A stretch of 33,691 bases of DNA from a virus: the IMG/VR virus record IMGVR_UViG_3300017765_000017. The stretch is one strand, 5' to 3'. Each line of letters starts with the position of its first letter. Within the stretch, counting starts at the first letter, position 1. The position numbers and the translations under genes are program-made. The notes beneath the pieces were generated by a model that saw only the letters and a program-made list of their open reading frames with translations, did no database searches and was not told where the DNA came from. Positions 124 through 13,409 of this stretch are shown piece by piece.

Positions 124-208
124 TTATAACGCCGAAACACCGCGCAACATAAGCACGGCTTTCTGGCAAATGCACCATCATTTTCATTTAGATGATGATG
201 ATGTTTGA
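2..208 (+). CDS. C-terminal part of an 80-aa hypothetical protein whose ATG is at 33534 (junction-spanning ORF)
   Basis: The frame opened at ATG 33534 continues through the repeat into position 2 and ends at TGA 206-208. It ends in a His-rich/acidic tail (...WQMHHHFHLDDDDV). Confidence 0.6.
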   Translation, partial: NRIKAEKASMNALTPSQREAIKKAHNALRDFVNEWSDGFDLYNAETPRNISTAFWQMHHHFHLDDDDV

Positions 209-685: not shown

Positions 686-694
686 CCAGTGTCA

Positions 695-712
695 CTAAAA
701 TAGCTATTTTAG
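695..712. repeat. Perfect 18-bp palindrome CTAAAATAG/CTATTTTAG
   Basis: Read directly from the sequence. Lies between convergent genes and also contains TAGCTA-ttt-TAGCTA. Confidence 0.9.
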
Positions 713-733
713 CTAGTTTTGCGACAGAGGATC

Positions 734-761
734 AGCCCGGCATTAACCGGGCTTTTCTTTT
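734..761. terminator. Rho-independent, probably bidirectional terminator between convergent transcription units
   Basis: Stem AGCCCGG / CCGGGCT with loop cattaa, followed by TTTTCTTTT. An A/T-rich stretch lies on the other side. Confidence 0.7.
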
Positions 762-762
762 G

Positions 763-1590: not shown

Positions 1591-1591
1591 T

Positions 1592-2020
1592 CTATTCCCC
1601 TATCACTTTAAATCTGCTGATCTCAAAATGAGCCACCAGCCCCACATCTTGACTGTCGCCCCGGTCGCGTCTGCCACCAAAGCCAACGTCAAAATCCTCT
1701 GCAAAATTGATCGTTGCAAGTTTGTCAGTCCATTGCACGATCAGATAGCTATCCAGCCCGGTATGCTTTGACAGGTCACGAGCAGCCATCACCTTGTCGA
1801 GGTTGAGCATCATAGTCGGATACCTGTTCATCGGGTTCGTCCTGACCTTGACCTCACAGAAAAACCAGACAAAGCCACTAGCCATTTTGTGCATAGCAAA
1901 GTCCAGCTTGTAACTGATCGGCAGTTTCTTGTAGTCGGCGTTCAGATGCAGCGACACCCTCTCAATGACCTCATGCTCATTACGCAAATCTTGTGCGCTC
2001 TCATATAACGGTCTATTCAT
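1592..2020 (-). CDS. Putative PD-(D/E)XK-fold nuclease-like protein
   Basis: D...E-V-K arrangement (LDFAMH...FFCEVKVR). ATG 2020 overlaps the upstream TGA, with a GGGGGAG RBS. Confidence 0.4.
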   Translation of the reverse strand: MNRPLYESAQDLRNEHEVIERVSLHLNADYKKLPISYKLDFAMHKMASGFVWFFCEVKVRTNPMNRYPTMMLNLDKVMAARDLSKHTGLDSYLIVQWTDKLATINFAEDFDVGFGGRRDRGDSQDVGLVAHFEISRFKVIGE

Positions 2021-2340
2021 CACTCCCCCTTAAACTCATAATCCTGATTATCAGATGTCTTTATCTTGTGACAGTTGGCGCATAGCAGTTGATACACGTC
2101 CTTCGGGTCAGCACCAGCATCAACCATTGAGTTGATGGTGTTTGTGTTCTGCTGACCGTTCATCTTTACCTTGCCATTAGTGCGCCACTGTATCGGCTTG
2201 ATATGGTCAAACTCAAGCACACGATAATCACCGTTACCGCACTCAATGCACGAACCGCCCAAAGCATCTATCGCCAGCCTTCTACGTCTTACCCTTGACC
2301 GCCGTTGCACTGTCCGGCGTTGCTCCGATGTATATGCCAT
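2020..2340 (-). CDS. HNH endonuclease
   Basis: CIECGNGDYRVLEFDHIKP ... LLCANCHKIKT (Cys pairs plus the H-N-H core). I prefer the internal ATG 2340 because it forms a TAATG overlap with the upstream stop. Confidence 0.8.
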   Translation of the reverse strand: MAYTSEQRRTVQRRSRVRRRRLAIDALGGSCIECGNGDYRVLEFDHIKPIQWRTNGKVKMNGQQNTNTINSMVDAGADPKDVYQLLCANCHKIKTSDNQDYEFKGE

Positions 2341-2726
2341 TACGCCCAGCTTTCCCTGACCAACATGCACCACGTTTCAAAGCTGATCGTTGCAAGGTCA
2401 TCCTTGCCAGCATAGTCAGCGTTAATGCTGGACAGTCGCACCACACAGCGTATCGGCTGGCGGTCATATTTGTAGATCAGCACAGGCTCAGTACCAGATG
2501 CGTCACTGGCACGTTCAACCTGTGACCACCACTCATCTTTGTGTGTGACGCCGTGAGCATACCTCTTGGCTTCGACAGTCCAGCCGTCAATGCCAATCAG
2601 GTCGCCGTGGTCTGCGGCTCTGTATTGTTCGATGTCTCTTTTCACATCGTCAATACCCAGTTCGTCCATACACATACGAGCCAATTCGCGTTCAAAATTG
2701 GCACCCTTCCGGCGTCCGTTAGTCAT
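2340..2726 (-). CDS. Holliday-junction resolvase-like nuclease (Hjc / PD-(D/E)XK type)
   Basis: N-terminal RRKGANFERELA followed by D...GIDGWTVEAKRY (D, E-x-K), as in archaeal Hjc-type resolvases. ATGA coupling with the upstream ORF. Confidence 0.6.
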   Translation of the reverse strand: MTNGRRKGANFERELARMCMDELGIDDVKRDIEQYRAADHGDLIGIDGWTVEAKRYAHGVTHKDEWWSQVERASDASGTEPVLIYKYDRQPIRCVVRLSSINADYAGKDDLATISFETWCMLVRESWA

Positions 2727-2962
2727 TTGACCTTCTCCCCATTGCCGCGAAAATCACCCATATCAACGCCGCCCATTAGCTGGCCTTCAGCCAATGACCG
2801 CTTGCTGTACTGACCGTGCTTGTCAGCATCACCTGATGCCGCCGGGTCATCCTCAAAGTTCGGGCAACCCATATTCAATAGTCGCAGCTTTTCAAACTCA
2901 GTCGCGTGGTCAATCGTGTGATTAAACTGGTTCTTATAAAGAATAGATGGTTTTTTAAACAT
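2723..2962 (-). CDS. Hypothetical protein
   Basis: Track ORF, same strand as its neighbours. ATG 2962 is preceded by a GGAGA RBS. Confidence 0.5.
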   Translation of the reverse strand: MFKKPSILYKNQFNHTIDHATEFEKLRLLNMGCPNFEDDPAASGDADKHGQYSKRSLAEGQLMGGVDMGDFRGNGEKVK

Positions 2963-3152
2963 CAAAATCTCCGCACCAATCTTTCAGCCCGACCTTGCCG
3001 CCTGACCACTTATACAACTCCATCATCTTTTGCCCTGATGGTGGTGTCCGATGATAAATCCAGTTATTCACTGACGCTCTTGTGACATTCATAGTCCTTG
3101 CTAGTTCAGACTGTGTAATGCCCCGCATCATCATATATTCTGCCAGTTTCAC
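2955..3152 (-). CDS. Cro/CI-family (XRE/YdaS-like) HTH transcriptional regulator
   Basis: GITQSELARTMNVTRASVNNWI helix-turn-helix. GTG start with an AGGAGA RBS 5 nt upstream. First gene of the leftward operon, facing a divergent promoter region. Confidence 0.75.
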   Translation of the reverse strand: MKLAEYMMMRGITQSELARTMNVTRASVNNWIYHRTPPSGQKMMELYKWSGGKVGLKDWCGDFDV

Positions 3153-3176
3153 TTGGTTCTCCTACAAATATAAATT

Positions 3177-3235
3177 AACATTATGTCAATCTGTATAAAA
3201 TTATTGTTGACAGGTCAAATACTATTTCGTAACAA
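3177..3235. promoter_or_regulatory. Divergent control region: rightward sigma70-like promoter plus TTGAC/GTCAA half-sites and an AACATTATG box
   Basis: TTGACA (3207-3212), a 17-nt spacer, then TAACAA (3230-3235). Inverted TTGAC-ag-GTCAA at 3207-3218, GTCAA at 3185-3189, and AACATTATGTCAAT at 3177-3190. Confidence 0.45.
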
Positions 3236-3271
3236 AGGGTATCAAGCCAATCACGGCCAAGGGAGTTACAA

Positions 3272-4102
3272 ATGGATTTATTAGAAAAAATGAAATCGGT
3301 AGGTGTCTACCATTTCTCACCAAGCCAGTTAAATCGTCCATTGGCGAACTGGATGTTTGAATATGTTTACCTAGCAAAAGAGAAACGCCGCGAGATAATC
3401 GTCGGTGAGAACGCAGCTTTCGGTACTGCCGTGCATACAGTCATACAGGCTGTCGTGTGCCACGGTCAGGACATTGATGAGGCTGTTGAGGAATCTACAA
3501 CAGGTTATGACTTTCACCCTGCAAACTTCTCACAAGATAAGCGTGACAAGTTTCGTGAACTGATACCAGCCGCCGCCAGTGTCGGCATCGACCTACTATC
3601 TCCCTTGTTTGCTGGCGCTCAAGAAGAGCGCAAGATCGAACTGATGCTGGACGGTGTGCTGGTGCCTATTATGGGCTATGTCGATTTGTTTAAGGACGGT
3701 TCACTGGCAGAGATTAAGACCAAGGCACCCCGGCAGGGTCAGGTCAAGAAGGATGGCACTAGAAGCTGGACTAAGGCTTCACTGCCAAAGGAACCAGCGT
3801 GGGAGCATATTATGCAAGCCGCTGTGTATTGGAAGGCCACAGGTGCAACGCCTAACATTGCGTATGTATCGTCTACTGATGGCGTTATCTACAACTCAGA
3901 TAACTGCGAAAAAATGTCAGAGGACGTTCTGAATTTTGCCATTGAGGAGATCCGGCGTAAGGCTATTACCCGGCAGAACTTGTTGGCAGTAAGCACCGAT
4001 CCAAAGGTGCTGGCTGGTTTGATGGAGCCAGACTTCAATCATCCATTCTATTGGGGACATCAATTCGTAAATGATGCAAAGGAGTTATGGAGCAATGTCT
4101 AA
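3272..4102 (+). CDS. PD-(D/E)XK exonuclease (RecB/Cas4-like recombination exonuclease)
   Basis: GYVDLFKDGSLAEIKTK (D...E-x-K) and a downstream QAAVYW (QxxxY) motif. GGGAG RBS. Lies upstream of the annealase gene. Confidence 0.7.
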   Translation: MDLLEKMKSVGVYHFSPSQLNRPLANWMFEYVYLAKEKRREIIVGENAAFGTAVHTVIQAVVCHGQDIDEAVEESTTGYDFHPANFSQDKRDKFRELIPAAASVGIDLLSPLFAGAQEERKIELMLDGVLVPIMGYVDLFKDGSLAEIKTKAPRQGQVKKDGTRSWTKASLPKEPAWEHIMQAAVYWKATGATPNIAYVSSTDGVIYNSDNCEKMSEDVLNFAIEEIRRKAITRQNLLAVSTDPKVLAGLMEPDFNHPFYWGHQFVNDAKELWSNV

Positions 4103-4280
4103 ATATCTATTGATAATGGTCACTCTGACTGGCTTTGAGGATGCAAAGGTGGATGTCATTGGTACATTTGACACTATCTCTGAATGTCACGTTGCAAAGA
4201 CTACGACTACGTTCAAGCAAAATCCTGATAACTATTTCTGCTTTACTACACGCCGTGGCGTAGATTGGAGTGTCAAATGA
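4095..4280 (+). CDS. Small hypothetical protein with a hydrophobic N-terminus
   Basis: Internal ATG 4095 with a GGAG RBS (MSKYLLIMVTLTGF...). ATGA overlap with the next gene. Confidence 0.45.
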   Translation: MSKYLLIMVTLTGFEDAKVDVIGTFDTISECHVAKTTTTFKQNPDNYFCFTTRRGVDWSVK

Positions 4281-4975
4281 GTAATGTATGGGAAACACTG
4301 AGCAAGATTGATTGCTCAAAGCATGTCGAAAAGAAAAACGGTTTTACCTACCTGTCGTGGGCGTGGGCTTGGACTATTCTCAAGCAGCACTACCCGACAG
4401 CACAGGTAACAAAGCATCTGTTCCAAGTGAACGGCAACCAACTGCCGTACATGCTGGACGCAGACGGTCACGCATATGTGACTGTTACGGTCAAGATTAT
4501 GCCAGAGGGTAACGCAAGTGCTGTCACCCCACTGGAATCAGCTACAGAGATTATGCCTGTACTGAATCACGCTAATCGTCCAATCAAGAACCCGAACAGC
4601 TTTGAGGTCAATGCCTCACTGCAACGCTGTATGGTCAAGGCAATCGCCTTGCTGGGTCTTGGTTGCTACATTTACGCTGGCGAGGATTTGCCAGCAACGT
4701 CTGACGCTGGTGGTGGGAGCAGCCTTCCACGCAAGCCAGCAGCGGGGCGTACCCCATCGTCAAACACTTCCGAAACTTGTGATGAGAATACCTCTAGCGG
4801 CGGTGGGGTACAGAAGCCCAAAAAGATTGCGTCTCCTCTTACAGAAGAGCAGGAGATTGCAATGGCCCCAGACAGAGAATCTCTCAGAAGTTTGTATGTG
4901 AGAATGGGGCCTAAAGCGAAAGACTTTAATTATCTATTCACTAAACGTTTAAAGGAGTTAGAAGCTAATGGCTGA
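4277..4975 (+). CDS. Rad52-like single-strand annealing protein (Sak / DUF1071 type)
   Basis: GFTYLSWAWAWTILKQHYP is the hallmark N-terminal motif of the Sak/DUF1071 annealases. A low-complexity Gly/Ser/Pro C-terminal tail follows. Confidence 0.7.
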   Translation: MSNVWETLSKIDCSKHVEKKNGFTYLSWAWAWTILKQHYPTAQVTKHLFQVNGNQLPYMLDADGHAYVTVTVKIMPEGNASAVTPLESATEIMPVLNHANRPIKNPNSFEVNASLQRCMVKAIALLGLGCYIYAGEDLPATSDAGGGSSLPRKPAAGRTPSSNTSETCDENTSSGGGVQKPKKIASPLTEEQEIAMAPDRESLRSLYVRMGPKAKDFNYLFTKRLKELEANG

Positions 4976-5222
4976 TTACGACAACAATATGCGGGGCGTA
5001 CTGTTCCCGAATGACAAGGGCGACAACCCAAAGCGTCCTGACATGACAGGCAATCTTGAAATCGAGGGTACGAAATACAGGGTATCTGCTTGGCAAAAAA
5101 CTAGCCAAAAAGGCACTGATTTTCTGTCCTTCGTGGTTGAAGAGGACGATGGGTCACGTCGTGCGGCACCGCAGCAAAATGGTGCCAATAATGAGCCATT
5201 AAATGACAGCATCCCCTTTTAA
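4968..5222 (+). CDS. Small SSB-slot protein: DUF736-like core with an SSB-type acidic C-terminal tip (..NDSIPF)
   Basis: YRVSAWQKTSQKGTDFLSFVVEEDD resembles the DUF736 core as I recall it. The last residues, D-S-I-P-F, mimic the bacterial SSB tip DDDIPF. Confidence 0.5.
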   Translation: MADYDNNMRGVLFPNDKGDNPKRPDMTGNLEIEGTKYRVSAWQKTSQKGTDFLSFVVEEDDGSRRAAPQQNGANNEPLNDSIPF

Positions 5223-5391
5223 GATCACCGTTGTAACTGATGGCCTCATTGTCCAGACGGATGATGAGGTCTATCGGGTGACGATGGACAAGGATGAAAT
5301 GATGAAGCTGTCAACGGAGATACTGTTGATGCTTACACAGAAAATGCGCGACAAAAGCAGTATGAATGGTTCTGGATATGTGGCCGGGTAA
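5203..5391 (+). CDS. Hypothetical protein
   Basis: 62-aa track ORF in the operon orientation. The start overlaps the upstream gene by 20 nt, so the exact start is uncertain. Confidence 0.4.
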   Translation: MTASPFKITVVTDGLIVQTDDEVYRVTMDKDEMMKLSTEILLMLTQKMRDKSSMNGSGYVAG

Positions 5392-5590
5392 GAAACGTAC
5401 CAAAACAGTAACGGTGAAACGCACGGTCAGGCCGGGTACATGCAGCTCTTGTGGCAAGGGATTTGATTGGAACATAGACCCCGGCATTGTGAACGGGGCA
5501 AAAAAGGAGTTTTGTGGACATGAATGTTTTCGGGAAAATATTGAAAAAGTGGTTCGGCACGACTACGGCGAGGACTTTGACAGCCTCTGA
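5366..5590 (+). CDS. Small zinc-finger protein (CxxC ... FCGHEC, FCS/TRASH-like)
   Basis: CSSCGKGF...KKEFCGHECF gives four Cys in CxxC/CxxxC spacing. Alternative start at ATG 5378. Confidence 0.5.
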   Translation: MVLDMWPGKKRTKTVTVKRTVRPGTCSSCGKGFDWNIDPGIVNGAKKEFCGHECFRENIEKVVRHDYGEDFDSL

Positions 5591-5906
5591 GATTGAGGCA
5601 CCAAAGCATCACTGCTTGCCGCCGATGGAGCGCATTATACGCGCTACATGCACAGTGACTGGCATTACTAGGAATGAGTTGCTGTCAGGTCGTAGGCCAG
5701 CAGAGTTTGTACATGCGCGGCATATCGCTATGTATCTGGCTCGTGAGTATACGACACTAAGCCTTCCTCAGATTGGTCGGGCGATGAACAAGGATCACAC
5801 AACGGTTCATTACGTTGCTAATAAGATGGCGAAGCGTGGCCGTGGTGCAACCAAAGTGAATCGTGACCTTGCCGCTGTAAAGAAGGCCGCTGGGTTAGAT
5901 GGCTGA
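5514..5906 (+). CDS. Stand-alone DnaA domain IV-like DNA-binding protein
   Basis: VHARHIAMYLAREYTTLSLPQIGRAMNKDHTTVHYVANKM matches the DnaA C-terminal HTH signature (R..AMYL....SL..IG.....DHTTV). The start is ambiguous: GTG 5514, ATG 5520 or ATG 5625. Confidence 0.75.
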   Translation: MDMNVFGKILKKWFGTTTARTLTASEIEAPKHHCLPPMERIIRATCTVTGITRNELLSGRRPAEFVHARHIAMYLAREYTTLSLPQIGRAMNKDHTTVHYVANKMAKRGRGATKVNRDLAAVKKAAGLDG

Positions 5907-6126
5907 CGATTTCGTTAATCACCCACCGCATTACAAGCAGGGTGACATAGAGTGTATTGATGCTATAAAGGCTGCACTTGGAGATGGCTACAAATACTAT
6001 CTTCAAGGCAGTATTATCAAGTATATCTGGAGATTTGAACATAAGCAGAATCCCGTTCAAGACTTACAGAAATCATCTTGGTATTTAGACAAACTTATAG
6101 CGGAAATACAGAATGGCGAGAACTAG
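5899..6126 (+). CDS. DUF3310-family protein
   Basis: NHPPHYKQGDIECIDAI...KYIWRFEHK is the characteristic DUF3310 pattern. Confidence 0.65.
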   Translation: MADDFVNHPPHYKQGDIECIDAIKAALGDGYKYYLQGSIIKYIWRFEHKQNPVQDLQKSSWYLDKLIAEIQNGEN

Positions 6127-6610
6127 GCATGTTGCCGTCAAATTTATTGGTCAAACTGTAGCCGGGCAAATCGGTGAACACATAGCAGCCGCCGCAATCT
6201 TACAGCAAGGTTGGGGCGTTGCTCTTGCCACTCAGGATTCTGTTGACTTAGTGGCTTGGAACAAGGACACCGGACAACGCCTTCTTATACAAGTAAAATC
6301 CGCTCAGATCAGTAGAAACAGTCGAAACAAATTAGAGTTTCAACTTGGCCTTGGCGGAAATAAACGCTTACCAACGCGCTATGATTTTGACATAATGGCT
6401 CTCGTTTCAAGCGAACAACGAGCGTGTTACTTTCTACCTGTAACAGCTATCAAACAGAAAAAGATGAATCGCAGCACTGGGTTTTTTGAGAACCCAGAGT
6501 TAGAAGCAGATTCTTGGCAAAAAGCAATAGAGGAACTTTATTATGAACCTACCAAACAGAAGACCTTGCGTGACCACAGACATTGGAGCCGGGCTGGCAG
6601 TGACAGTTAG
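6113..6610 (+). CDS. PD-(D/E)XK endonuclease (free-standing, intron-associated-type fold)
   Basis: GEHIAAAAILQQGWGVALATQDSVDLVAW...LLIQVKS gives the D-x-D...Q-V-K catalytic arrangement. Confidence 0.55.
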   Translation: MARTRHVAVKFIGQTVAGQIGEHIAAAAILQQGWGVALATQDSVDLVAWNKDTGQRLLIQVKSAQISRNSRNKLEFQLGLGGNKRLPTRYDFDIMALVSSEQRACYFLPVTAIKQKKMNRSTGFFENPELEADSWQKAIEELYYEPTKQKTLRDHRHWSRAGSDS

Positions 6611-6764
6611 CTTTCACCCGCATACAGGCGAGGCAGTTGAGGTATTTATGACTGGCCGTGGCAAGGCCAGCGACAACACACTTACTGAGGCACTGTACCA
6701 GTTAGGCGTAACGGCTTCTAAGCTGATGCAGGGCGAACATGATGAGGCTGAAGCAGTAGCATGA
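6543..6764 (+). CDS. Hypothetical protein (possibly TSCPD-like)
   Basis: 73-aa ORF with ATGA coupling to the endolysin gene. EVFMTGRGKASD...LGVTASKLMQG loosely recalls the TSCPD domain. It overlaps the upstream gene by 68 nt, so the start is uncertain. Confidence 0.35.
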   Translation: MNLPNRRPCVTTDIGAGLAVTVSFHPHTGEAVEVFMTGRGKASDNTLTEALYQLGVTASKLMQGEHDEAEAVA

Positions 6765-7210
6765 AACTAGACGTACTCAGGGACGAAATTACGGCTGATG
6801 AAGGCTGTAAATACGAGATATATTTCGATCATCTAGATCTGCCCACAATGGGTATCGGGCATTTAATTAAGGTCGAAGACCCTGAGTACGGTAGGCCTGT
6901 AGGCACCAAGATCACACAAGAACGTGTGCATCAGGCGTTTAATCTGGACATCCTCGTTACAATAGAAGACTGCCGCCGTCTGTATTCTGATTGGGATACA
7001 TTCGGTGATGAGTTGCAGCACATCATTGCTAATATGATGTTTAATCTTGGCTATCCGCGTTTGGAGCGTTTTCGTAACATGCGAGAAGCTGTCAACGAAA
7101 AAGACTACGAAAAAGCGGCAGATGAAATGATAGACAGCAAGTGGTACACTCAGGTTCCGAATCGCGCAGAGCGGTTAGTGAAACGTATGAGAGAACTGGC
7201 TGATGGGTGA
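6761..7210 (+). CDS. Endolysin, T4-lysozyme-like (GH24 muramidase)
   Basis: ADEGCKYEIYFDHLDLPTMGIGHLI aligns with T4 lysozyme (E11 / D20 / T26, TIGIGHLL). Confidence 0.8.
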   Translation: MKLDVLRDEITADEGCKYEIYFDHLDLPTMGIGHLIKVEDPEYGRPVGTKITQERVHQAFNLDILVTIEDCRRLYSDWDTFGDELQHIIANMMFNLGYPRLERFRNMREAVNEKDYEKAADEMIDSKWYTQVPNRAERLVKRMRELADG

Positions 7211-7412
7211 AGTAACAATGGAGCGGTTTCTTCGCTGGAAGATACTGCCCCGGCTAATGATGGTAGCCTTTACGTTAATGGCTTGGAACGTCTGTGACTG
7301 GTTTATGTCACTGGGCGTTGACGCAACAACACAACAAACAGCTTTCGTAAGCACCATAGTCGGAGCGGCTACTGGTGCTTTTGCTGTATGGATGGGACAC
7401 GAAGCAAAATGA
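7203..7412 (+). CDS. Two-TMD membrane protein (holin/antiholin candidate)
   Basis: Two hydrophobic helices (ILPRLMMVAFTLMAWNV and TAFVSTIVGAATGAFAVWMG). Sits between the endolysin and the 3TM holin. Confidence 0.5.
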   Translation: MGEVTMERFLRWKILPRLMMVAFTLMAWNVCDWFMSLGVDATTQQTAFVSTIVGAATGAFAVWMGHEAK

Positions 7413-7804
7413 TACAGGCACTGGTAGGCCCGGTTACAGGGCTGCTGGACAAGTTTATCGAAGACAAAGACCAGAAGAACAAGCTGGCTCACGAACTGGC
7501 TACAATGGCCGACAAACACGCTCAAGAGCTTGCCAAGGGTCAGCTAGAGGTAAACAAGGTAGAGGCCGCTCACAGGTCGCTGTTCGTCGCTGGTTGGCGT
7601 CCTTTTATCGGCTGGACATGCGGCGTTGCTCTGATGGCGCATTTTGTGCTGTTTCCGGCTACTGACTTTGTTGTGGCTTATATGGGCTACGATATACCAC
7701 CGATGCCAGCTTTTGATATGGAAAGCCTGATGACTGTGCTGCTTGGTATGCTGGGTCTGGGCGGTATGCGTAGCTTTGAGAAGATGAAGGGTGTGTCTAA
7801 GTAA
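7409..7804 (+). CDS. Holin of the GTA_holin_3TM type
   Basis: QLEVNKVEAAHRSLFVAGWRPFIGWTCG followed by hydrophobic helices matches my recollection of the gene-transfer-agent holin family. ATG 7409 forms an ATGA overlap. Confidence 0.6.
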   Translation: MIQALVGPVTGLLDKFIEDKDQKNKLAHELATMADKHAQELAKGQLEVNKVEAAHRSLFVAGWRPFIGWTCGVALMAHFVLFPATDFVVAYMGYDIPPMPAFDMESLMTVLLGMLGLGGMRSFEKMKGVSK

Positions 7805-7971
7805 TGGCTAAAAAGAACTACATTAAAGAAGACGCAAAAGAACAGTACCCTGCATATACCAAAGCGTTCTGGACACGGCAAAAGTTTGGTGCTGCATCTG
7901 ATGTGCGCTCTATCAGCGTGGAAGAATATATGAAAGAAAAACCCCCAGCCAAAGCCGGGGGTAAATCTTAA
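7804..7971 (+). CDS. Small hypothetical protein (55 aa, below the track cutoff)
   Basis: ATG 7804 forms a TAATG overlap with the holin stop. It translates as MAKKNYIKEDAKEQYPAYTKAFWTRQKF...KAGGKS and stops at TAA 7969-7971. Confidence 0.4.
   Translation: MAKKNYIKEDAKEQYPAYTKAFWTRQKFGAASDVRSISVEEYMKEKPPAKAGGKS
7933..7961. terminator. Bidirectional hairpin terminator at the convergent junction of the lysis operon and the moron
   Basis: CCCCC(agccaaagcc)GGGGG at 7942-7961. Read on the minus strand it is followed by TTTTTCTTTC. A T-rich stretch also follows it on the plus strand. Confidence 0.5.
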
Positions 7972-8237
7972 TATTTATCTTTTCTTATCACCTTTAAGGT
8001 AGCCCTAGCTGACCTAATTATTGCCCATAGACCATTATCTATAGTGGCGTCCACGTTTGGCTCATCAGCCGCGTAGAACTCGCACCTAGAAACAAACTCA
8101 TCCCAGTCATCTCCGGGCTTTGCGTCTATGTAGTAATGTGACTTTGTTTGCTTGATTATGTTTGGACTTTCAAACTCACTAACGCAATCACGGTGGTCAT
8201 CGTAATACCTTTTAGGTATGCGAATTATTTCGCTCAT
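7968..8237 (-). CDS. Hypothetical protein encoded by an autonomous cassette (moron)
   Basis: ATG 8237 with a GGGAGA RBS (MSEIIRIPKRYYDDHRDC...). The longer track start at 8300 lies inside the promoter spacer. Visibly AT-richer than its neighbours. Confidence 0.6.
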   Translation of the reverse strand: MSEIIRIPKRYYDDHRDCVSEFESPNIIKQTKSHYYIDAKPGDDWDEFVSRCEFYAADEPNVDATIDNGLWAIIRSARATLKVIRKDKY

Positions 8238-8587: not shown

Positions 8588-9064
8588 CTAGTAAGTTACT
8601 CCTAACCATACTAGGCTGACCAATAACGTGGTTATTGTCAATATGAGTATGCCAGCGACAATTATCTCTATAACTTTACGGCGCATCTCTTGTTGCTTGT
8701 AAATAGCTTCCTGACGTTGCTTACGAATACGGCCTTCTAACTGTATCAGATCAGCCCACGCCTGTGGCCCATAACTCATATTCAGAAATGTCTTTAGCTC
8801 CTGACGCTGTGCTTCCAGCTTCTTCTTAGCAGCGTATGCCTGTAACGCCTCTTCCTCGACAGAGCCAGCCGCAAACAGTTTCTTGAACAGTGGCGGGTTC
8901 TTTGACTGCTTCTCAGCTTGGTCAACGTCACTAGCCATCTTCATCCAGCGCGATACATCGCCCATACAGGATTCAATGTCACGCCCGGCTGCAATCATAT
9001 TCTTTATGGTGTTAAACGCCGCTGTAGCGCCAGCAACCGCCGCTGTAATGGTTACTGGCTCCAT
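8588..9064 (-). CDS. Coiled-coil protein with a C-terminal transmembrane anchor
   Basis: 158-aa track ORF with a C-terminal IEIIVAGILILTITTLLVSLVWLGV helix. Confidence 0.55.
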   Translation of the reverse strand: MEPVTITAAVAGATAAFNTIKNMIAAGRDIESCMGDVSRWMKMASDVDQAEKQSKNPPLFKKLFAAGSVEEEALQAYAAKKKLEAQRQELKTFLNMSYGPQAWADLIQLEGRIRKQRQEAIYKQQEMRRKVIEIIVAGILILTITTLLVSLVWLGVTY

Positions 9065-9270
9065 TTCGTCAGCCTTCCCGGTCTTAGCGGATTACACTTA
9101 TATGACCGGGGCATGATCTTCCCTTCATGTATTTGGGCAATTTTGTTGCCCATCTCGTAGGCTCTACTTACGCATTGTTGTCTATCTTCATATGGGCCGC
9201 GTGTGTCGTGGTATTCCCAGCATTGCTCTGGGGACGCTACGCTACAAGCTAGGACGATTGCCTTGAACAT
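9052..9270 (-). CDS. Small Cys-rich protein with an N-terminal lipobox-like MFKAIVLAC
   Basis: 72-aa track ORF whose start overlaps the upstream TGA by 1 nt. Four Cys. The signal-like segment is very short. Confidence 0.5.
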   Translation of the reverse strand: MFKAIVLACSVASPEQCWEYHDTRGPYEDRQQCVSRAYEMGNKIAQIHEGKIMPRSYKCNPLRPGRLTKWSQ

Positions 9271-9494
9271 CAGCCACGCCCTAATACCTTGTCGAGCTTG
9301 TCCTCGACGCGGTGCAGGGCTTCCATAACCTGACGCATGTCGTCACGCATTTCAGCCCGTGTGGCGTATTCCTCGCGGGTCTTGTTCAGCAAAATGTTGA
9401 GCCGCTTCTGCTCTCTGTTTTGCTCAGACAGAAACCACGCAAGGCCAGCCACGACTAGCCCGGTCAGCATGTCTATGAGGCTGGTCATTTCCAT
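9270..9494 (-). CDS. Small N-terminal-TMD plus coiled-coil protein
   Basis: LIDMLTGLVVAGLAWFL helix followed by a charged helical region (EQKRLNILLNKTREEYATRAEMRDDMRQVMEALHRVEDKL). Confidence 0.55.
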   Translation of the reverse strand: MEMTSLIDMLTGLVVAGLAWFLSEQNREQKRLNILLNKTREEYATRAEMRDDMRQVMEALHRVEDKLDKVLGRG

Positions 9495-9670
9495 CAGTCA
9501 GCATCCGCTATGGTCAGCAAGCCCTCGGACTGCTGTCGCATTATTTCTGCGTAGTCTGAATTGTCAGTATCCATCGGCACAGATATTTTTTTGCCGTCAA
9601 CAACAATATTGACGCTTATATTAGCACCGTTAATAGAAAAATATTTAGCTGATGTAATATTCATCATCAT
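9494..9670 (-). CDS. Small hypothetical protein downstream of the fibre gene (58 aa, below the track cutoff)
   Basis: ATG 9670 forms an ATGA overlap with the fibre stop, and its own stop overlaps the next ATG. Translates as MMMNITSAKYFSINGANISVNIVVDGKKISVPMDTDNSDYAEIMRQQSEGLLTIADAD. Confidence 0.45.
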   Translation of the reverse strand: MMMNITSAKYFSINGANISVNIVVDGKKISVPMDTDNSDYAEIMRQQSEGLLTIADAD

Positions 9671-11031
9671 AACTCCGCATTAAAACTTATTTCGCCACTA
9701 GCATCGTTAGTATTAATGCAATAAACAGCGTCACCTGTTGAAAATACATTGCCGTGGTCACATCTTACAAACGCGACAGTCTTACTATTACCTGCATTTG
9801 TCATATTAATAATGTTTGAATTTGTGCTGCTACCTCTGTGCATACCTACTGTTCCAGAAAAAGACACTGATGGATTTGCCCTCATCTCAACAGGAAAATG
9901 AACAAACAAATCGCTGCTGTTACCGTCAAAATTAGCCCCCATCCCGTGACCAGTATATGCTGAGGTTCCCTGTGACCGATAAAAATACCGCTGACACAAC
10001 GCCAGTTCTTCGCCATAGCTGCGATGGACAAAGTCGGTCGCAGTTGAGCCGACTTCTAGCTTGACGCCTGTGATGTGCCACGTTGCACCACTGGTTGTGA
10101 GAATTTCTGTATGCCCCGCAGCGGCGTTTGCCTTAGTAAATGCAGACCACGATGTACCTAGTGTTCCGCTAGTCCAGTTTGTCCCAGCCCCAAGATACCA
10201 ATATACACTTAGGCTTTGTGCGTTGTCGTTATCTAACGCACCAGTTGTATCGCCAGCAAATGTAATAGTTTTGTACTCCCAAGTATTTGCGGCGTTTATT
10301 GTGTAGCTTGCGGCGATAGTGCGGGTGTTATCAGTATCGTGCAGGTTTATAATATATGTTCCAGTTTCCGAACCTTTAATCCAAAAAGATAAAGTTACCG
10401 CCTCTGCACTTGATGTACCCTTTTTTAAGTGCTGTAGGTTTTGACCTTCCATCCGATGTTCTATTCGTATCATCTCATCAGCAGCTAAAGTTGTTTCTGG
10501 CGTTGAAACAGTTATTTTATAAGAATTGGCAAAACCATCTGGTGCATCTGTAACTTGTGCGTGAGTTAACGATAATTGGTCAACAGCATCAGCACTACCA
10601 GTACAACGAAACCTATCAACGGCTATGTAACCTGATACACCAGTGGCACTTGTTGAACGCTGTGCCACAGTCATCGCCCCATTGATGATGAGGCTAGGGT
10701 TCGCGTGTCTATCCGCAAAGCCTAGCTGGCCTGAGCCGTCCGTCTTCAACACCTGATCGGCGCTACCGTCACCGTCTGGGAGTGTAAACGTAGTGTTGGC
10801 TGTCACGCTTGCTGGCGCTTGCAGCTTGATGCTGTTGGTGTCGGTATCGTCCTGTAGCTTCAGAACGTCCACGCCGCTGGTGCCAGACGCAAAGTCAGCG
10901 AGATGGCTCATCTGCTCCCGGATGGCGTTGTTCACGCCACTGGGCAGCATCCCTTCAGCTACAGATATTCCGCCAACATCCGTGTTGTTGGACGCGGTGG
11001 CATCGTAATCAGTGAGCTTATCTTTTGCCAT
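9667..11031 (-). CDS. Tail fibre protein (conserved N-terminal anchor plus distal domain)
   Basis: N-terminus DYDATASNNTDVGGISVAEGMLPSGVNNAIREQMSHLADF...TFTLPDGDGSADQVLKTDGSGQLGFA is a widespread phage fibre N-terminal module. Paralogous to 12912..13409. Confidence 0.75.
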   Translation of the reverse strand: MAKDKLTDYDATASNNTDVGGISVAEGMLPSGVNNAIREQMSHLADFASGTSGVDVLKLQDDTDTNSIKLQAPASVTANTTFTLPDGDGSADQVLKTDGSGQLGFADRHANPSLIINGAMTVAQRSTSATGVSGYIAVDRFRCTGSADAVDQLSLTHAQVTDAPDGFANSYKITVSTPETTLAADEMIRIEHRMEGQNLQHLKKGTSSAEAVTLSFWIKGSETGTYIINLHDTDNTRTIAASYTINAANTWEYKTITFAGDTTGALDNDNAQSLSVYWYLGAGTNWTSGTLGTSWSAFTKANAAAGHTEILTTSGATWHITGVKLEVGSTATDFVHRSYGEELALCQRYFYRSQGTSAYTGHGMGANFDGNSSDLFVHFPVEMRANPSVSFSGTVGMHRGSSTNSNIINMTNAGNSKTVAFVRCDHGNVFSTGDAVYCINTNDASGEISFNAEL

Positions 11032-11040
11032 ATCGTTATC

Positions 11041-11598
11041 CTATTGACTGTCTGTAATACGTTCAAACATAATTGATGTTCTATCATAATCAGTGTTACC
11101 TGCGATGTTACTCCCAGACCCCAAACTGGCAGTTTCAAGTCTGAATCTAAATGTTGATGCGTTTGTGACATTGACTAAAATACTACGGGTCATTGCACCA
11201 CCACCATTGGGGTCACTAGCGGTGCCTCTGACATTGAAATAACCCCTTCGGTCAAAATTAGAACCGCTGTCTGACGACACATCTGCATCAACAGTTACAA
11301 CCGTGTCGCTATTAGAGGTGATGATTTCTACTTGAGGCGTTACTTTATACAAGCCGGTTTTGGGAAATGTAAAAACTCCACTACTTTCGGTCATACCTAT
11401 CCCAGCATATGCAAAAGTAGAATCGTCAGTTCTTTCCCAACCACTAATAGTTGCAAGGTCTGTAGTAAAGTTAGATGTCAGCCGCCAAGCGTCTATCTCG
11501 ACCGTATTTGGCATACTGACCTGACCACTGCCATCAATGGATATAGCCGCTGTGCCGCCACTGCTCTGGATATTATCGACGCGTATCACGCTCGTCAT
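11041..11598 (-). CDS. C1q/TNF-like receptor-binding protein, paralog C
   Basis: SSGVFTFPKTGLYKVTPQV matches the C1q-type G-x-F-T-x-P-x-x-G-x-Y motif. The N-terminus MTSVIRVDNIQSSGGTAAISIDGSGQV is shared with paralogs A and B. TAATG start at 11598. Confidence 0.6.
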   Translation of the reverse strand: MTSVIRVDNIQSSGGTAAISIDGSGQVSMPNTVEIDAWRLTSNFTTDLATISGWERTDDSTFAYAGIGMTESSGVFTFPKTGLYKVTPQVEIITSNSDTVVTVDADVSSDSGSNFDRRGYFNVRGTASDPNGGGAMTRSILVNVTNASTFRFRLETASLGSGSNIAGNTDYDRTSIMFERITDSQ

Positions 11599-11837
11599 TA
11601 TGACCACTCCTCTGTAGGCGCATCAGGCCAAGTCGGGTTGTTTGGATTAGTCTGCCGGATAGTGCGGATGCTGGCACGATAGGTGGCAAACGCCGCGACG
11701 CAGTCTGCTGTCAAGCCGCTGTCTGGTAGCTGTGTCCAGTCGGTTGCCTTTAATATTGCATCCGCTGTGTATATAGCCCCGTTTTCATTCGTGTCTGGGG
11801 CGGGTAGATACATATTTATGTTTTTATAATTTGCCAT
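11598..11837 (-). CDS. Tail fibre assembly/chaperone-like small protein
   Basis: WTQLPDSGL...FATYRASIRTIRQTNPNNPTWPDAP resembles Tfa-type C-terminal motifs. Embedded among the fibre genes. Confidence 0.45.
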   Translation of the reverse strand: MANYKNINMYLPAPDTNENGAIYTADAILKATDWTQLPDSGLTADCVAAFATYRASIRTIRQTNPNNPTWPDAPTEEWS

Positions 11838-11839
11838 AA

Positions 11840-12358
11840 TTACCCCACTAAATAACCACTAAACTGAGTGCCTGTAATAGATAAGTTATAACTAGTGTCA
11901 CTTTGCATGTAATACCACGGTGCGACTACATAACTAGCTGGCAATTCGATGGTTATTGAAGTTTGCAATGATTGGAAATTTGGAGCAGGTGCGCCCTCAA
12001 TTCTATAAGACGAATTAAACAAATCAGATGCGGTTTCCAAAGTTGAAGCGTGATTTGACAACAGTATTATAAGAAATCCAGTACCAACTGAATCAATCCG
12101 TTGACTTAAATTAAAATGATAAACACCCGAGACAGGCGTCGTAAACACACCAGATGACACATTGCCACCAATATCAAAAACCTCATTGTCAAAATTCAAC
12201 CTGTTGTAACCAGTTGCGGATAATCCTGTTTGACTGCTTGACCACCTTACCATAAACGCTGGTCTAGCTGGCGTCAGTATCCGACCACTGCTATCAATCG
12301 TGGCGGCAGACGTGCCGTTGGTGTGTTGCAGTTCCTGTACGCCGATTATGCTTGCCAT
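11840..12358 (-). CDS. C1q/TNF-like receptor-binding protein, paralog B
   Basis: SSGVFTTPVSGVYHFNLSQ motif and a shared N-terminus, MASIIGVQELQHTNGTSAATIDSSGRI. Confidence 0.6.
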   Translation of the reverse strand: MASIIGVQELQHTNGTSAATIDSSGRILTPARPAFMVRWSSSQTGLSATGYNRLNFDNEVFDIGGNVSSGVFTTPVSGVYHFNLSQRIDSVGTGFLIILLSNHASTLETASDLFNSSYRIEGAPAPNFQSLQTSITIELPASYVVAPWYYMQSDTSYNLSITGTQFSGYLVG

Positions 12359-12367
12359 TGTTTTATC

Positions 12368-12910
12368 CTATTGCGCTTGTGCTACACGTTCAAACATCAC
12401 GTTTGTCGTAGTTGTTGTGCTGTTTCCAATGACGTAAGAAGCGTTATCCATACTTGTTGCTCGCAATTTAACTTTTACATTTGAGACATCAGTTACATTG
12501 ATAAAAACTGAACCAGTCGCCGTACCGTTCACGCTATCTGAATCCCCACCGGAGACCGACAAAACTGAATTGTAAGTGCTGTTGTCTGTAGTAACGTGGA
12601 CTTGACCACTCATATTATCAGACGCATCTGAACGAGTTGCTTGTTGGAAAGTTATTTTATACAAACCAGTCTGCGGAAATGTAAAAATACCTGACGAATG
12701 TGACATTCCAGACACTTTGCCAGTGCCAGCCCACGCAACCTGTGACCAAGCTGTAATGTCGCTATCTCCATTAGTTGTATGATGGGCGTTGAGGTACCAT
12801 TGGTCGAAAACATACGATGCGTTCATATCGACACGACCGCTGCTATCAATCGAAAGCGCCGCAACTGCGCCGCCGCTGTGTCTGATTTCATCTACATATA
12901 TTTTGCTCAT
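12368..12910 (-). CDS. C1q/TNF-like receptor-binding protein, paralog A
   Basis: SSGIFTFPQTGLYKITFQQ motif and a shared N-terminus, MSKIYVDEIRHSGGAVAALSIDSSGRV. Confidence 0.6.
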   Translation of the reverse strand: MSKIYVDEIRHSGGAVAALSIDSSGRVDMNASYVFDQWYLNAHHTTNGDSDITAWSQVAWAGTGKVSGMSHSSGIFTFPQTGLYKITFQQATRSDASDNMSGQVHVTTDNSTYNSVLSVSGGDSDSVNGTATGSVFINVTDVSNVKVKLRATSMDNASYVIGNSTTTTTNVMFERVAQAQ

Positions 12911-12911
12911 A

Positions 12912-13409
12912 TCAAACCACCGTCAGGTTGCCGTTAATGGTTATCGTGGCGTTTACAATAAGTGGCCCCGCCGCCAAACCGTTTGTATTAGCCGCAACCG
13001 TCACATCTGTGTCGATCTGCTCTTCGTGGACGCGAATAATATCTCCCAGACCGCCGCCAGCTTCGCCCAAGAACGAGCCACCGCCGCCTAGACCCCAGCT
13101 AAGTGTGCCAGCGCCGTCAGTAAGCAGTGTCTGGCCGTCAGTGCCGTCGCCATCCGGCAGAGTAAGCGTGGTCGTGGTCGTTACCGCGCTGGGCGCTTGT
13201 ATCTTGATCTGTGCGCTGTTGTCGTCGTCTGCGAGTGAGAGGACATCAATGCCCACGGTGCCACTAACGAAATCAGCCGTGTCAGCCATAATCTCGCGGA
13301 TGGCATTGTTGATGCCAGCCGGGGAGCAGCCCTCGCTGATGTCGATTGACTGAATATCAGAGTTATTTGCGTTAGTAGCATCGTAATCGCGTATGCTGTT
13401 CTTTGCCAT
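12912..13409 (-). CDS. Short fibre-anchor protein (paralog of the fibre N-terminus)
   Basis: DYDATNANNSDIQSIDISEGCSPAGINNAIREIMADTADF...LTLPDGDGTDGQTLLTDGAGTLSWG parallels residues 1-105 of 9667..11031. Confidence 0.7.
   Translation of the reverse strand: MAKNSIRDYDATNANNSDIQSIDISEGCSPAGINNAIREIMADTADFVSGTVGIDVLSLADDDNSAQIKIQAPSAVTTTTTLTLPDGDGTDGQTLLTDGAGTLSWGLGGGGSFLGEAGGGLGDIIRVHEEQIDTDVTVAANTNGLAAGPLIVNATITINGNLTVV

What the first reader, a model, noticed from the sequence alone, without database searches (positions are those of the whole stretch)
9494..13409. Receptor-binding locus with three C1q/TNF-like paralogs, two paralogous fibre anchors and a chaperone-like gene
Gene order on the minus strand is as follows:
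1. A 165-aa anchor (12912..13409).
2. C1q-like paralog A (12368..12910).
3. C1q-like paralog B (11840..12358).
4. A Tfa-like 79-aa protein (11598..11837).
5. C1q-like paralog C (11041..11598).
6. A 454-aa fibre (9667..11031) whose first ~105 aa are paralogous to the 165-aa anchor.
7. A 58-aa ORF (9494..9670).

The three roughly 180-aa proteins share an N-terminal (I/V)xxxx(I/L)xxSGG...IDSSG(R/Q)(V/I) segment. They also share the C1q-style G-x-F-T-x-P-x-x-G-x-Y motif, and they diverge elsewhere.

This looks like one virion displaying several alternative receptor-binding heads on a shared attachment module (a branched or multi-valent fibre). Separately encoded C1q-like heads are unusual for a 33-kb phage.
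Basis: partly seen in the sequence, partly recalled or inferred. Interest (0 to 1): 0.65.

Follow-up and report, generated by a model that had tools for sequence, protein, structure and literature searches.

The report
Headless fibre adapter with three swappable heads
This marine podovirus-type phage genome encodes a short "headless" tail-fibre adapter followed by three small, separately encoded receptor-binding heads with a TNF/C1q fold, plus a second complete fibre; it is a modular multi-receptor kit of a known general design built from undescribed parts.

Summary
All seven minus-strand ORFs exist, are tightly packed, and are under purifying selection.

**Fold and family**
- Paralog A models confidently (pLDDT 92). 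Its best PDB matches are TNF and C1q domains.
- Paralog B passes Pfam's C1q cut-off.
- Paralog C is 38% identical to A.
- The 79-aa protein is a Phage_tail_APC chaperone.

**Architecture, from about 80 related loci**
- Module 1 is the 454-aa fibre plus the 58-aa ORF.
- Module 2 is the 165-aa anchor: an N-terminal domain, a Gly-rich hinge and a conserved C-terminal cap ("ancC"). It is usually followed by three small head genes.
- Each head carries a slot-specific N-terminal peptide of about 20 aa.
- Head bodies recombine freely behind these peptides at the invariant IDSSG(R/Q)V junction.
- The peptide set co-varies with the last ~17 residues of ancC, not with the anchor's N-domain.
- Genomes without ancC have one fused fibre and no free heads.
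- AncC always ends its protein.

**Interpretation**
It most likely works like the K1-5/SP6 adapter or the KP32 branching system, but ancC shows no similarity to T4 gp10. C1q-type RBP genes beside pelagiphage fibres were reported in 2014, so the heads are not unusual. Physical docking and stoichiometry remain unproven.

The parts
12912..13409 (-). Headless fibre adapter ('anchor'), 165 aa, made of ancN + hinge + ancC
   Evidence: The family has 319 relatives. The best 120 are nearly all 162-172 aa at 57% identity or more. dN/dS is 0.12-0.33. It lies directly after the ejection-protein genes.
13095..13409 (-). ancN (aa 1-105), the presumed tail-attachment domain, paralogous to the N-terminus of the 454-aa fibre
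   Evidence: 57% identity to fibre aa 1-103. The same domain heads every fibre-like gene of the related loci. Its first 50-60 aa recur at the N-termini of fibre, 'tail collar' or 'hyaluronidase' genes of related cultured podophages. Attachment to the tail is inferred.
13044..13094 (-). Gly-rich hinge (aa 106-122, WGLGGGGSFLGEAGGGLG)
   Evidence: Conserved GGGGSFLG..GGG in alignment A4. Residues 109-128 are disordered in the AF2 model. It only matches scFv linkers in the PDB.
12915..13043 (-). ancC (aa 123-165, DIIRVHEEQIDT...ITINGNLTVV), the conserved C-terminal cap and proposed docking hub for the heads
   Evidence: It is the most conserved part of the anchor. It is at the C-terminus in essentially all of 114 representative clusters, in proteins of about 60-1000 aa. 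Its last ~17 aa co-vary with the head N-peptide set. Free heads occur only in loci that have ancC.
12368..12910 (-). Head A (slot 1), 180 aa: N-peptide MSKIYVDEIRHSGGAVAALS + IDSSGRV junction + TNF/C1q-fold jelly roll
   Evidence: AF2 pLDDT 91.8, pTM 0.85. Foldseek PDB top hits are Eiger TNF, Caprin-2 C1q, C1QL and APRIL, with probability 1.00 and TM up to 0.81. dN/dS 0.21.
11840..12358 (-). Head B (slot 2), 172 aa: N-peptide MASIIGVQELQHTNGTSAAT + IDSSGRI + C1q domain ending FSGYLVG
   Evidence: Pfam C1q E 4.3e-5 over model positions 1-127 of 127, above the gathering score. Ten of 15 relatives hit C1q. dN/dS 0.26.
11598..11837 (-). Tail-fibre assembly chaperone (Phage_tail_APC), 79 aa, linked to the B-type head
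   Evidence: Pfam PF16778 E 2.8e-8 and PHROG 'tail fiber assembly'. In all six loci that carry it, it directly follows a B-type/C1q head.
11041..11598 (-). Head C (slot 3), 185 aa: N-peptide MTSVIRVDNIQSSGGTAAIS + IDGSGQV + TNF/C1q-fold head
   Evidence: 38% identical to A over the full length. It is in the same family alignment used for the model. It is 100% identical at nucleotide level to the L017 copy, whereas the anchor has dS 0.32.
9667..11031 (-). Second, complete fibre, 454 aa: ancN paralog (aa 1-105, 10717-11031) + C-terminal tip domain fibC
   Evidence: PHROG 4492 'tail fiber protein' E 1.5e-63. CBM_4_9 hits in 2 of 19 relatives and a weak match to the phage 'Spike (GP13)' chain 9t9r_H. 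dN/dS 0.26-0.45.
9494..9670 (-). 58-aa partner of the 454-aa fibre (function unknown, possibly an assembly factor)
   Evidence: It lies immediately downstream of the fibC-type fibre in the great majority of related loci, even where the module order is swapped. dN/dS 0.35.

Best explanation
The locus is the host-recognition kit of a small marine podovirus-type phage. It holds two fibre systems that share one type of tail-attachment domain (ancN).

System 1 is an ordinary one-chain fibre. It consists of the 454-aa protein (ancN plus a beta-sandwich-like tip) and its small 58-aa partner.

System 2 is a split, adapter-type fibre.
1. The 165-aa anchor binds the tail through ancN.
2. It extends through a flexible Gly-rich hinge.
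3. It ends in a ~45-aa cap, ancC.
4. Three separately translated proteins, A, B and C, each fold into a TNF/C1q-type jelly-roll head. These are presumably homotrimers.
5. Each head attaches non-covalently to ancC through its own ~20-residue N-terminal peptide.
6. The B head is folded with the help of the adjacent APC chaperone.

The result is a multivalent fibre that can recognise up to three different surface ligands. I favour all three heads being mounted at once.

New specificities are acquired by recombination that swaps head bodies. The exchange runs between the invariant IDSSG(R/Q)V junction and the next gene start, and it leaves the docking peptides in place.

Shown here: gene content, folds, paralogy, purifying selection, mosaicism, and the phyletic and co-variation links between ancC and the head peptides.

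Inferred: tail attachment by ancN, physical docking of the peptides on ancC, homotrimeric state, stoichiometry, and the nature of the receptors.
For: Fold:
- A model with pLDDT 91.8. PDB best matches are all TNF/C1q superfamily.
- B passes the Pfam C1q cut-off.
- A vs C is 38% identical.

Rosetta-stone fusions:
- P0084 is the anchor N-domain (70% identity) + shaft + A-type head (64% identity) in one chain. It has neither ancC nor an N-peptide.
- P0018, P0038 and P0050 fuse another N-domain to C- or A-type heads.

The anchor is a conserved stand-alone family with a strongly conserved C-terminal part.

Mosaicism:
- Every N-peptide class occurs with A, B and C head bodies, joined at IDSSG(R/Q)V.
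- L004 and L002 carry other heads behind the same three slot peptides.

Co-variation:
- The ancC tail PLIVNATITINGNLTVV is always followed by the W1/W2/W3 peptides.
- Other ancC tails are followed by their own peptide triplets.
- L014 has an ancN 85% identical to the window's, but a different ancC tail and non-W heads.
- L021 has two anchor types in one contig, each followed by its cognate heads.

Phyletic pattern: all complete loci without ancC have a single fused fibre and no free heads.

AncC is C-terminal in essentially all of 114 representative clusters.

Three heads per anchor is the mode, at 26 of 36 modules. The cultured myophage Melnitz also has an ancC protein, three ~170-aa heads and a Tfa.

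All genes are under purifying selection.

Precedent for the mechanism: adapter, branching-domain and docking-peptide systems (PMC6872550 and PMC13352976).
Against: - No physical evidence exists. No multimer prediction, proteomics or microscopy was possible here.
- The anchor monomer model is poor (pLDDT 66) and has no structural match.
- AncC is only ~45 aa per chain. If the anchor is a symmetric trimer, it is unclear how it would offer three different sites.
- Slot-specific peptides could be conserved simply because recombination leaves gene 5' ends in place.
- Co-variation of ancC and the peptides is confounded by shared ancestry, apart from L014 and the two-anchor contigs.
- Some modules have two heads, not three.
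- AncC shows no similarity to the known branching domain, T4 gp10 or K1-5 gp37.
Confidence: 0.6

Rival explanations
1. One head at a time. Each anchor trimer carries a single head trimer, joined end-to-end and coaxially. A, B and C compete for the same site, so each virion is a stochastic mosaic of single-headed fibres and not branched ones.
For: - In fused relatives the N-motif lies inside a continuous shaft just before the head.
- All N-peptides share one consensus, M-[SAT]-x-h-x-[VA]-[DN]-x-h.
- AncC is small and, if trimeric, symmetric.
- A weak T-x-x-G-N-x-x-V similarity runs across the ancC-end / head-start junction when aligned with the fusions.
Against: - The three peptides of each cognate set are very different from each other, yet each is individually conserved.
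- Three heads is the modal number in four divergent peptide sets and in a myophage.
- The junction similarity is not significant: shuffles reached the score 63-339 times out of 500 in six of seven fusions.
Confidence: 0.25
2. Heterotrimeric head. One chain each of A, B and C assembles into a single C1q-like heterotrimer, as the A, B and C chains of complement C1q do (from my own knowledge of C1q). The three N-peptides set the chain registration.
For: - Three genes with three distinct conserved N-peptides is the modal arrangement.
- All three window heads share the TNF/C1q fold.
Against: - Head bodies are shuffled freely among slots, which would break co-adapted interfaces.
- In L002 and L012 slot 1 is a Peptidase_S74-type protein next to two jelly-roll heads. 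From my own knowledge, S74 intramolecular-chaperone proteins are known as homotrimers.
- Single-chain fusions with A- or C-type heads exist, implying these heads can homotrimerise.
- Some modules have only two heads.
Confidence: 0.08
3. The small heads are not mounted on the anchor. They bind elsewhere on the virion (nozzle, capsid or the 454-aa fibre), or act off the virion. The anchor would then be a short fibre or whisker in its own right.
For: - No interaction has been demonstrated.
- In Melnitz the module lies beside neck genes, away from the tail-fibre genes.
Against: - Free heads occur only where ancC occurs, and fused fibres replace both.
- The head peptide sets track the ancC tail and not ancN.
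- AncC always ends its chain.
- The stop of the anchor gene and the start of the first head gene are tightly coupled.
Confidence: 0.07

Closest known systems
Adapter-type dual RBP system of coliphages K1-5/K1E and Salmonella phage SP6 (gp37 adapter plus two tailspikes), as summarised in PMC6872550
   Same: - A short, headless protein with an N-terminal virion anchor.
- Several separately encoded RBPs, each with a short conserved N-terminal peptide.
- RBP bodies exchanged horizontally, and host range widened.
   Different: - The hub here is a ~45-aa C-terminal cap behind a Gly hinge, with no detectable similarity to K1-5 gp37 or T4 gp10 (hhalign probability below 1%).
- Usually three RBPs, not two.
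- The RBPs are ~180-aa TNF/C1q-fold heads, not large enzymatic tailspikes.
- The hub is also found in a myophage.
Anchor-branched RBP systems (coliphage G7C gp66/gp63.1; Klebsiella phages KP32, K11, KP34), PMC6872550 and PMC13352976
   Same: The pairing of a branching element on the primary RBP with a conserved docking peptide on the secondary RBP. That pairing has been shown experimentally to be necessary for incorporation of the second RBP.
   Different: - In those phages the primary RBP keeps its own receptor-binding domain, and the branching element is T4gp10-like.
- Here the primary protein is headless, and the presumed hub is unrelated by sequence.
C1q-domain putative RBP genes next to the tail fibre of HTVC010P-like pelagiphage genomes (Mizuno et al. 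2014, PMC3909814); also cryoconite phages (PMC7468147)
   Same: - Small, separately encoded C1q-type proteins beside the fibre gene.
- A hypervariable head with a better conserved N-terminal end.
- Marine podoviruses.
   Different: Those papers did not describe any of the following: the headless adapter, its conserved C-terminal cap, the three slot-specific peptides, the IDSSG(R/Q)V junction, or the link between cap and peptide set.
TNF/C1q superfamily trimeric jelly-roll heads (C1QL, Caprin-2 C1q, APRIL, RANKL, Eiger); among phages the PRD1/PR772 spike P5 knob and the lactococcal phage 1358 RBP
   Same: - Predicted fold of head A: Foldseek probability 1.00, TM 0.73-0.81.
- The C1q-type G-x-F-T-x-P-x-x-G-x-Y strand motif.
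- B ends in the C1q-like FSG-x-L motif.
   Different: - Sequence identity is 9-19%.
- A- and C-type heads do not reach any Pfam C1q score (0 of 79).
- Matches to PRD1 P5 are only E 0.07 by sequence.
- There is no collagen stalk.

Membership tests
Pfam C1q domain (PF00386) | Sequence score at or above the curated gathering score over the whole domain | tested here: met
   Paralog B only: 24.2 bits against a cut-off of 23.7, model positions 1-127 of 127. Ten of 15 B-type relatives match at E up to 0.01. The call is borderline but consistent.
Pfam C1q domain (PF00386) | The same sequence criterion applied to paralogs A and C | tested here: not met
   No C1q hit for A or C at E up to 1, and none for any of 79 A/C-type relatives at E up to 0.01.
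TNF/C1q structural superfamily | Compact all-beta jelly-roll superimposable on solved TNF/C1q domains | tested here: met
   Head A: AF2 pLDDT 91.8. The top 45 PDB matches are all TNF/C1q members, with E about 1e-6 to 2e-5 and TM up to 0.81. C follows by 38% identity to A.
TNF/C1q structural superfamily | Trimeric assembly of the head | not testable with these tools
   Only monomer prediction was available.
Adapter / anchor-branched RBP systems (K1-5 gp37, G7C gp66, KP32 RBP1) | N-terminal anchor domain on the primary protein, conserved within the phage group | tested here: met
   AncN is conserved at the N-terminus of all fibre-type genes of the group. Attachment to the tail itself is inferred.
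Adapter / anchor-branched RBP systems (K1-5 gp37, G7C gp66, KP32 RBP1) | T4gp10-like branching domain as the docking site | tested here: not met
   hhalign of the anchor profile against K1-5 gp37 gives probability 0.06%, and against T4 gp10 0.3%. There are no Pfam hits. AncC is much shorter than a gp10 domain. This was a sequence-level test only.
Adapter / anchor-branched RBP systems (K1-5 gp37, G7C gp66, KP32 RBP1) | Secondary RBPs carry short N-terminal peptides conserved within the group while the rest of the protein varies | tested here: met
   Three slot-specific ~20-aa peptides are conserved across loci, with exchanged head bodies behind them.
Adapter / anchor-branched RBP systems (K1-5 gp37, G7C gp66, KP32 RBP1) | Physical interaction between hub and peptide, required for incorporation into the virion | not testable with these tools
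   Only indirect evidence is available: co-occurrence, co-variation and fusions.
Phage_tail_APC (PF16778) tail-fibre assembly chaperones | Sequence score above the gathering score | tested here: met
   The 79-aa protein scores 33.9 bits against a cut-off of 26.6. It also hits PHROG 'tail fiber assembly' at E 1.1e-8.
T7 gp17-type fibre N-terminal domain (PF03906) | Sequence match to the Pfam model | tested here: not met
   No Pfam family was found at E up to 1 for the anchor or the 454-aa fibre. The analogy to gp17 rests on gene position only.

The most novel reading that the evidence does not exclude
A ~45-residue C-terminal cap unrelated to T4 gp10 is a new, widespread branching hub. It mounts three different trimeric TNF/C1q-type heads on one fibre at the same time, each through its own cognate N-terminal peptide. 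Marine podophages, and some myophages of streamlined oligotrophs (SAR11/OM43-type hosts), would then carry tri-specific fibres whose heads are swapped as cassettes.
Probability: 0.3. Interest if true: 0.75.

Novelty: new variant of a known kind. Interest (0 to 1): 0.55.

Why it matters
- If the docking model is right, it defines a compact plug-and-play receptor-binding system: a hub of about 45 aa, docking peptides of about 20 aa, and heads of about 150 aa.
- The system occurs in a very abundant but poorly cultured group of marine phages.
- It would explain, mechanistically, the hypervariable 'C1q islands' seen in marine viromes.
- It would give explicit rules for which part of each gene sets virion attachment and which sets host specificity. 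That helps host prediction and phage engineering.
- The hub would add a second, structurally unrelated solution to fibre branching beside the T4gp10-like domain.
- The cultured myophage Melnitz carries the same module, so the model can be tested directly.

Tried and rejected
1. **Nucleotide search.** Megablast of the locus against 50,697 phage records found nothing.
2. **PDB sequence searches.**
   - Single sequences gave only sub-threshold C1q hits for B and nothing for A, the anchor or the fibre.
   - Profiles gave weak PRD1 P5 (E 0.07) and C1QL (E 0.12) matches.
   - The scFv hits to the anchor are Gly-linker artefacts.
3. **Anchor structure.** The monomer model is of low confidence, and its fold search gave nothing.
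4. **Host from prophages.** The scan of 185,579 reference genomes found only four partial matches (aa 56-105) in MAGs.
5. **Indexed homology search with the 60-aa ancC.** This returned three hits and was uninformative. The exhaustive search replaced it.
6. **'Split fibre' test.** I asked whether the sequence upstream of the head motif in fused relatives resembles ancC. The result was not significant in six of seven cases.
7. **Recoding fusion of anchor and head A.** The junction reads GGTGGTTTGATATG. I rejected this for three reasons:
   - GGTGG sits at a normal Shine-Dalgarno distance from the ATG.
   - The frame relation between the anchor and the first head is not conserved. It is a 1-nt gap in the window's clade and an ATGA overlap or 0-nt gap in others.
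   - Free heads have their own conserved starts.
8. **Pseudogene or redundant-duplicate reading.** Rejected by dN/dS of 0.1-0.45 and intact ORFs in many genomes.
9. **Literature.** The name of the closest cultured relative (C72C1) retrieved no relevant paper.

Full report
**1.

The window carries, on the minus strand, ORFs at 12912-13409 (165 aa), 12368-12910 (180 aa), 11840-12358 (172 aa), 11598-11837 (79 aa), 11041-11598 (185 aa), 9667-11031 (454 aa) and 9494-9670 (58 aa). The gaps between them are 1, 9, 2, -1, 9, -4 and -1 nt.

The paralogy is far beyond chance:
- Anchor vs fibre N-terminus: 57% identity over 103 aa, E 7e-38.
- A vs C: 38% over the full length, E 3e-30.
- B resembles both over its first ~90 residues. 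A profile-profile comparison gives 98.8% probability.

**2. Genomic context**

The window looks like a small podovirus genome, and no tRNA gene was found.
- It has a T7-type portal, 79% identical to that of the uncharacterised Phage C72C1 and 40-45% identical to those of freshwater-spring, OM43 and SAR11 podophages.
- It has a major head protein, an adaptor-like protein, a nozzle-like protein and ejection proteins.
- The locus follows the ejection-protein genes. It is followed by small membrane proteins that look like a spanin pair and a holin-like protein.
- It therefore sits where T7-like phages keep their fibre gene.

**3. Folds and families**

- Head A, modelled with a 79-sequence alignment, gives pLDDT 91.8 and pTM 0.85, all beta.
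- Its best PDB matches are exclusively TNF/C1q superfamily members. These include Eiger TNF, Caprin-2 C1q, C1QL1/3, APRIL, RANKL, BAFF and EDA. Probability is 1.00 and TM reaches 0.81. The lactococcal phage 1358 RBP appears further down the list.
- Head B passes the Pfam C1q gathering score over the whole model, as do 10 of 15 of its relatives.
- A- and C-type proteins never reach Pfam C1q (0 of 79). They are C1q/TNF-like by structure only.
- The 79-aa protein is a Phage_tail_APC chaperone.
- The 454-aa protein's C-terminal 350 aa match PHROG 4492 'tail fiber protein' at E 1.5e-63. Weak hints point to a carbohydrate-binding beta-sandwich: CBM_4_9 in 2 of 19 relatives, and a phage 'Spike (GP13)' chain at E 0.026.

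The fold is jelly-roll, and none of the genes is degraded (dN/dS 0.1-0.45).

**4. The heads are not rare**

- The A/B/C profile finds 961 relatives, almost all about 180 aa and unnamed.
- The viral structure library holds many phage proteins already named 'C1q domain containing protein'.
- Mizuno et al. 2014 described C1q-domain genes next to the tail fibre of HTVC010P-like pelagiphage contigs. [quoted passage not shown]
- Bellas et al. 2020 saw the same in cryoconite phages (PMC7468147).

**5. What is new is the architecture, seen by comparing about 80 related loci**

There are two separable modules, and their order can be swapped.
- Module 1 is the fibre (ancN + tip) with the 58-aa gene immediately downstream in the great majority of loci.
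- Module 2 is the headless anchor followed by small head genes.

The anchor is a conserved stand-alone family: 319 relatives, with the best 120 nearly all 162-172 aa. It has three parts:
- ancN (aa 1-105);
- a Gly-rich hinge, disordered in the model and matching only scFv linkers in the PDB;
- a strongly conserved cap, ancC (DIIRVHE-QLDT-VTVA-NTNGLAAGP...).

An exhaustive search finds ancC in 114 representative clusters, in proteins of about 60 to 1000 aa. It is at the C-terminus in essentially all of them.

**6. Slot peptides and swappable heads**

In the window's clade the three genes after the anchor begin with these peptides, whatever head follows:
- slot 1: MSKIYVDEIRHSGG...
- slot 2: MASIIGVQELQHTNG...
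- slot 3: MTSVI(K/R)VDNIQ...

Examples from related loci:
- L004 has a C-type head in slot 1 and a different C1q head in slot 2.
- L002 has a Peptidase_S74 protein in slot 1 and A-type heads in slots 2 and 3.
- L012 and L020 carry yet other heads.

Across about 125 family members, every N-peptide class is found with A-, B- and C-type bodies. The junction is always the invariant IDSSG(R/Q)V.

Recombination is also visible directly. Between the window and L017 the C gene is 100% identical at nucleotide level and the APC gene has dS 0.02. By contrast, anchor, A and B have dS 0.26-0.51. The APC gene directly follows a B-type/C1q head in all six loci that have it, so it behaves as part of a head-plus-chaperone cassette.

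**7. Evidence that the heads belong to the anchor's cap**

(a) *Fusions.* P0084 joins the anchor's N-domain (70% identity) through a shaft to an A-type head (64% identity). It lacks both ancC and the N-peptide. Other fusions join a different N-domain to A- or C-type heads.

(b) *Phyletic pattern.* All complete loci without ancC carry one fused fibre in that position. It has an ancN N-domain, mostly of the anchor's own subtype, and often a Peptidase_S74 end or an adjacent Tfa-like gene. None of these loci has free heads. Every ancC-bearing locus with enough downstream sequence has free heads.

(c) *Co-variation.* The ancC tail PLIVNATITINGNLTVV always goes with the W1/W2/W3 peptides. Other tails go with their own triplets:
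- MSTLKADTI / MSEIKVDTLTGKT / MAGKIVADTLEHST
- MSSQINVD / MASEIKVN / MSTLNVDAL
- MASILNVDQ / MSTLYVD / MTSILKVS

L014 has an ancN 85% identical to the window's, but another tail and non-W heads. L021 has two anchor types on one contig, each followed by its cognate heads.

(d) *Number.* Three heads is the mode, at 26 of 36 modules.

(e) *Portability.* The cultured OM43 myophage Melnitz has a 115-aa protein ending in ancC, three ~170-aa heads (one of them C1q-B-like) and a Tfa.

**8. Most likely mechanism**

- The anchor attaches to the tail by ancN, and ancC is a distal docking hub.
- Each head docks on ancC by its N-terminal peptide.
- This gives a multivalent fibre that works alongside the separate 454-aa fibre.
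- Head bodies are exchanged as cassettes.

This is the logic of the K1-5/SP6 adapter and of the G7C/KP32 anchor-branch systems. In those, a branching domain and a conserved docking peptide are interacting partners (PMC6872550 and PMC13352976).

It is not a member of that family in the strict sense. The anchor profile shows no similarity to K1-5 gp37 or T4 gp10 (probability below 1%), and ancC is far shorter than a gp10 domain.

**9. What remains open**

Nothing here shows physical contact, oligomeric state or stoichiometry.
- Three different, individually conserved peptides per set, and a modal number of three heads, make me favour simultaneous mounting (branching).
- A small hub that is symmetric if the anchor is a trimer argues for one coaxial site with competing heads.
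- A C1q-style A/B/C heterotrimer is unlikely. Heads shuffle freely between slots. Peptidase_S74 proteins, which as far as I know are only described as homotrimers, occupy slot 1 in some genomes. Single-chain fusions also exist.
- The similarity across the ancC-end / head-start junction to fused shafts is not significant.
- The host is unknown. No full anchor occurs in reference genomes. The nearest cultured relatives of individual parts infect SAR11 and OM43.

**10. Verdict**

This is a real and well-organised receptor-binding locus. The heads themselves are a known and common feature of aquatic phages. The adapter with its conserved cap, the cognate sets of three docking peptides and the fixed recombination junction appear to be undescribed in the literature I could search. 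Together they make a new variant of the known adapter/branched-RBP design.

Noticed in passing
window 8588-9494 (minus strand): Three small genes sit directly downstream of the RBP locus.
- 9270-9494 (74 aa): an N-terminal TM segment plus a coiled coil, with weak Rz-like spanin and 'lipoprotein' PHROG hits.
- 9052-9270 (72 aa): a signal-peptide-like start with a possible lipobox (VLAC).
- 8588-9064 (158 aa): a C-terminal TM segment.

Together they look like an i-spanin/o-spanin pair plus a holin-like protein. They are conserved next to the fibre genes in most related loci.
   Followed up: partly
window 11041-11837 vs L017 8558-9354: There is a recent recombination tract. The C gene is 100% identical at nucleotide level and the APC gene has dS 0.02 between the window and L017. 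The adjacent anchor, A and B genes have dS 0.26-0.51.
   Followed up: yes
L021 (3377-8558); also L019 + L062 (one 33-kb contig): Some related genomes carry two anchor-plus-heads modules of different cognate types and no fibC-type fibre. Either fibre position can therefore be 'split' or 'fused'.
   Followed up: partly
L022-L064 and others, e.g. L026 5841-6674: In the more distant anchor clade, two further conserved genes of unknown function accompany the three heads. One is ~152 aa (MQTPxFKGTHLFDRLCWAKENL...). The other is ~120 aa (MAVTTYIVDKDGNQIDAS...). They may be assembly factors. The heads of that clade are 117-163 aa and all end in GDLA.
   Followed up: no
L088 (Methylophilales phage Melnitz MZ577097, 114226-116582): The ancC + three heads + Tfa module sits between the tail-sheath-stabiliser gene and the small-terminase gene, beside the neck genes. 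In a myophage it may therefore form neck or collar fibres and not baseplate fibres.
   Followed up: partly
window 12905-12925 (minus strand junction ...GGTGGTTTGATATG...): The anchor's stop codon and head A's start codon are 1 nt apart, with a GGTGG just upstream. It superficially recalls an RF2-type +1 frameshift site, but it fits ordinary translational coupling better. The frame relation is not conserved in other clades.
   Followed up: yes
P0003 (A-type head, 91% identical to window 12368-12910): The cluster record lists a longest contig of 104,430,999 bp. This suggests the phage sequence is present, as contamination or a mis-join, in a very large and probably eukaryotic assembly.
   Followed up: no
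window 1-8000: Coding strand and GC skew switch near 3 kb and 8 kb. The plus-strand block at 3.2-7.8 kb is probably the early, replication and lysis region, going by relatives that carry Sak, DnaA_C, lysozyme and GTA_holin_3TM genes there. I did not examine it.
   Followed up: no
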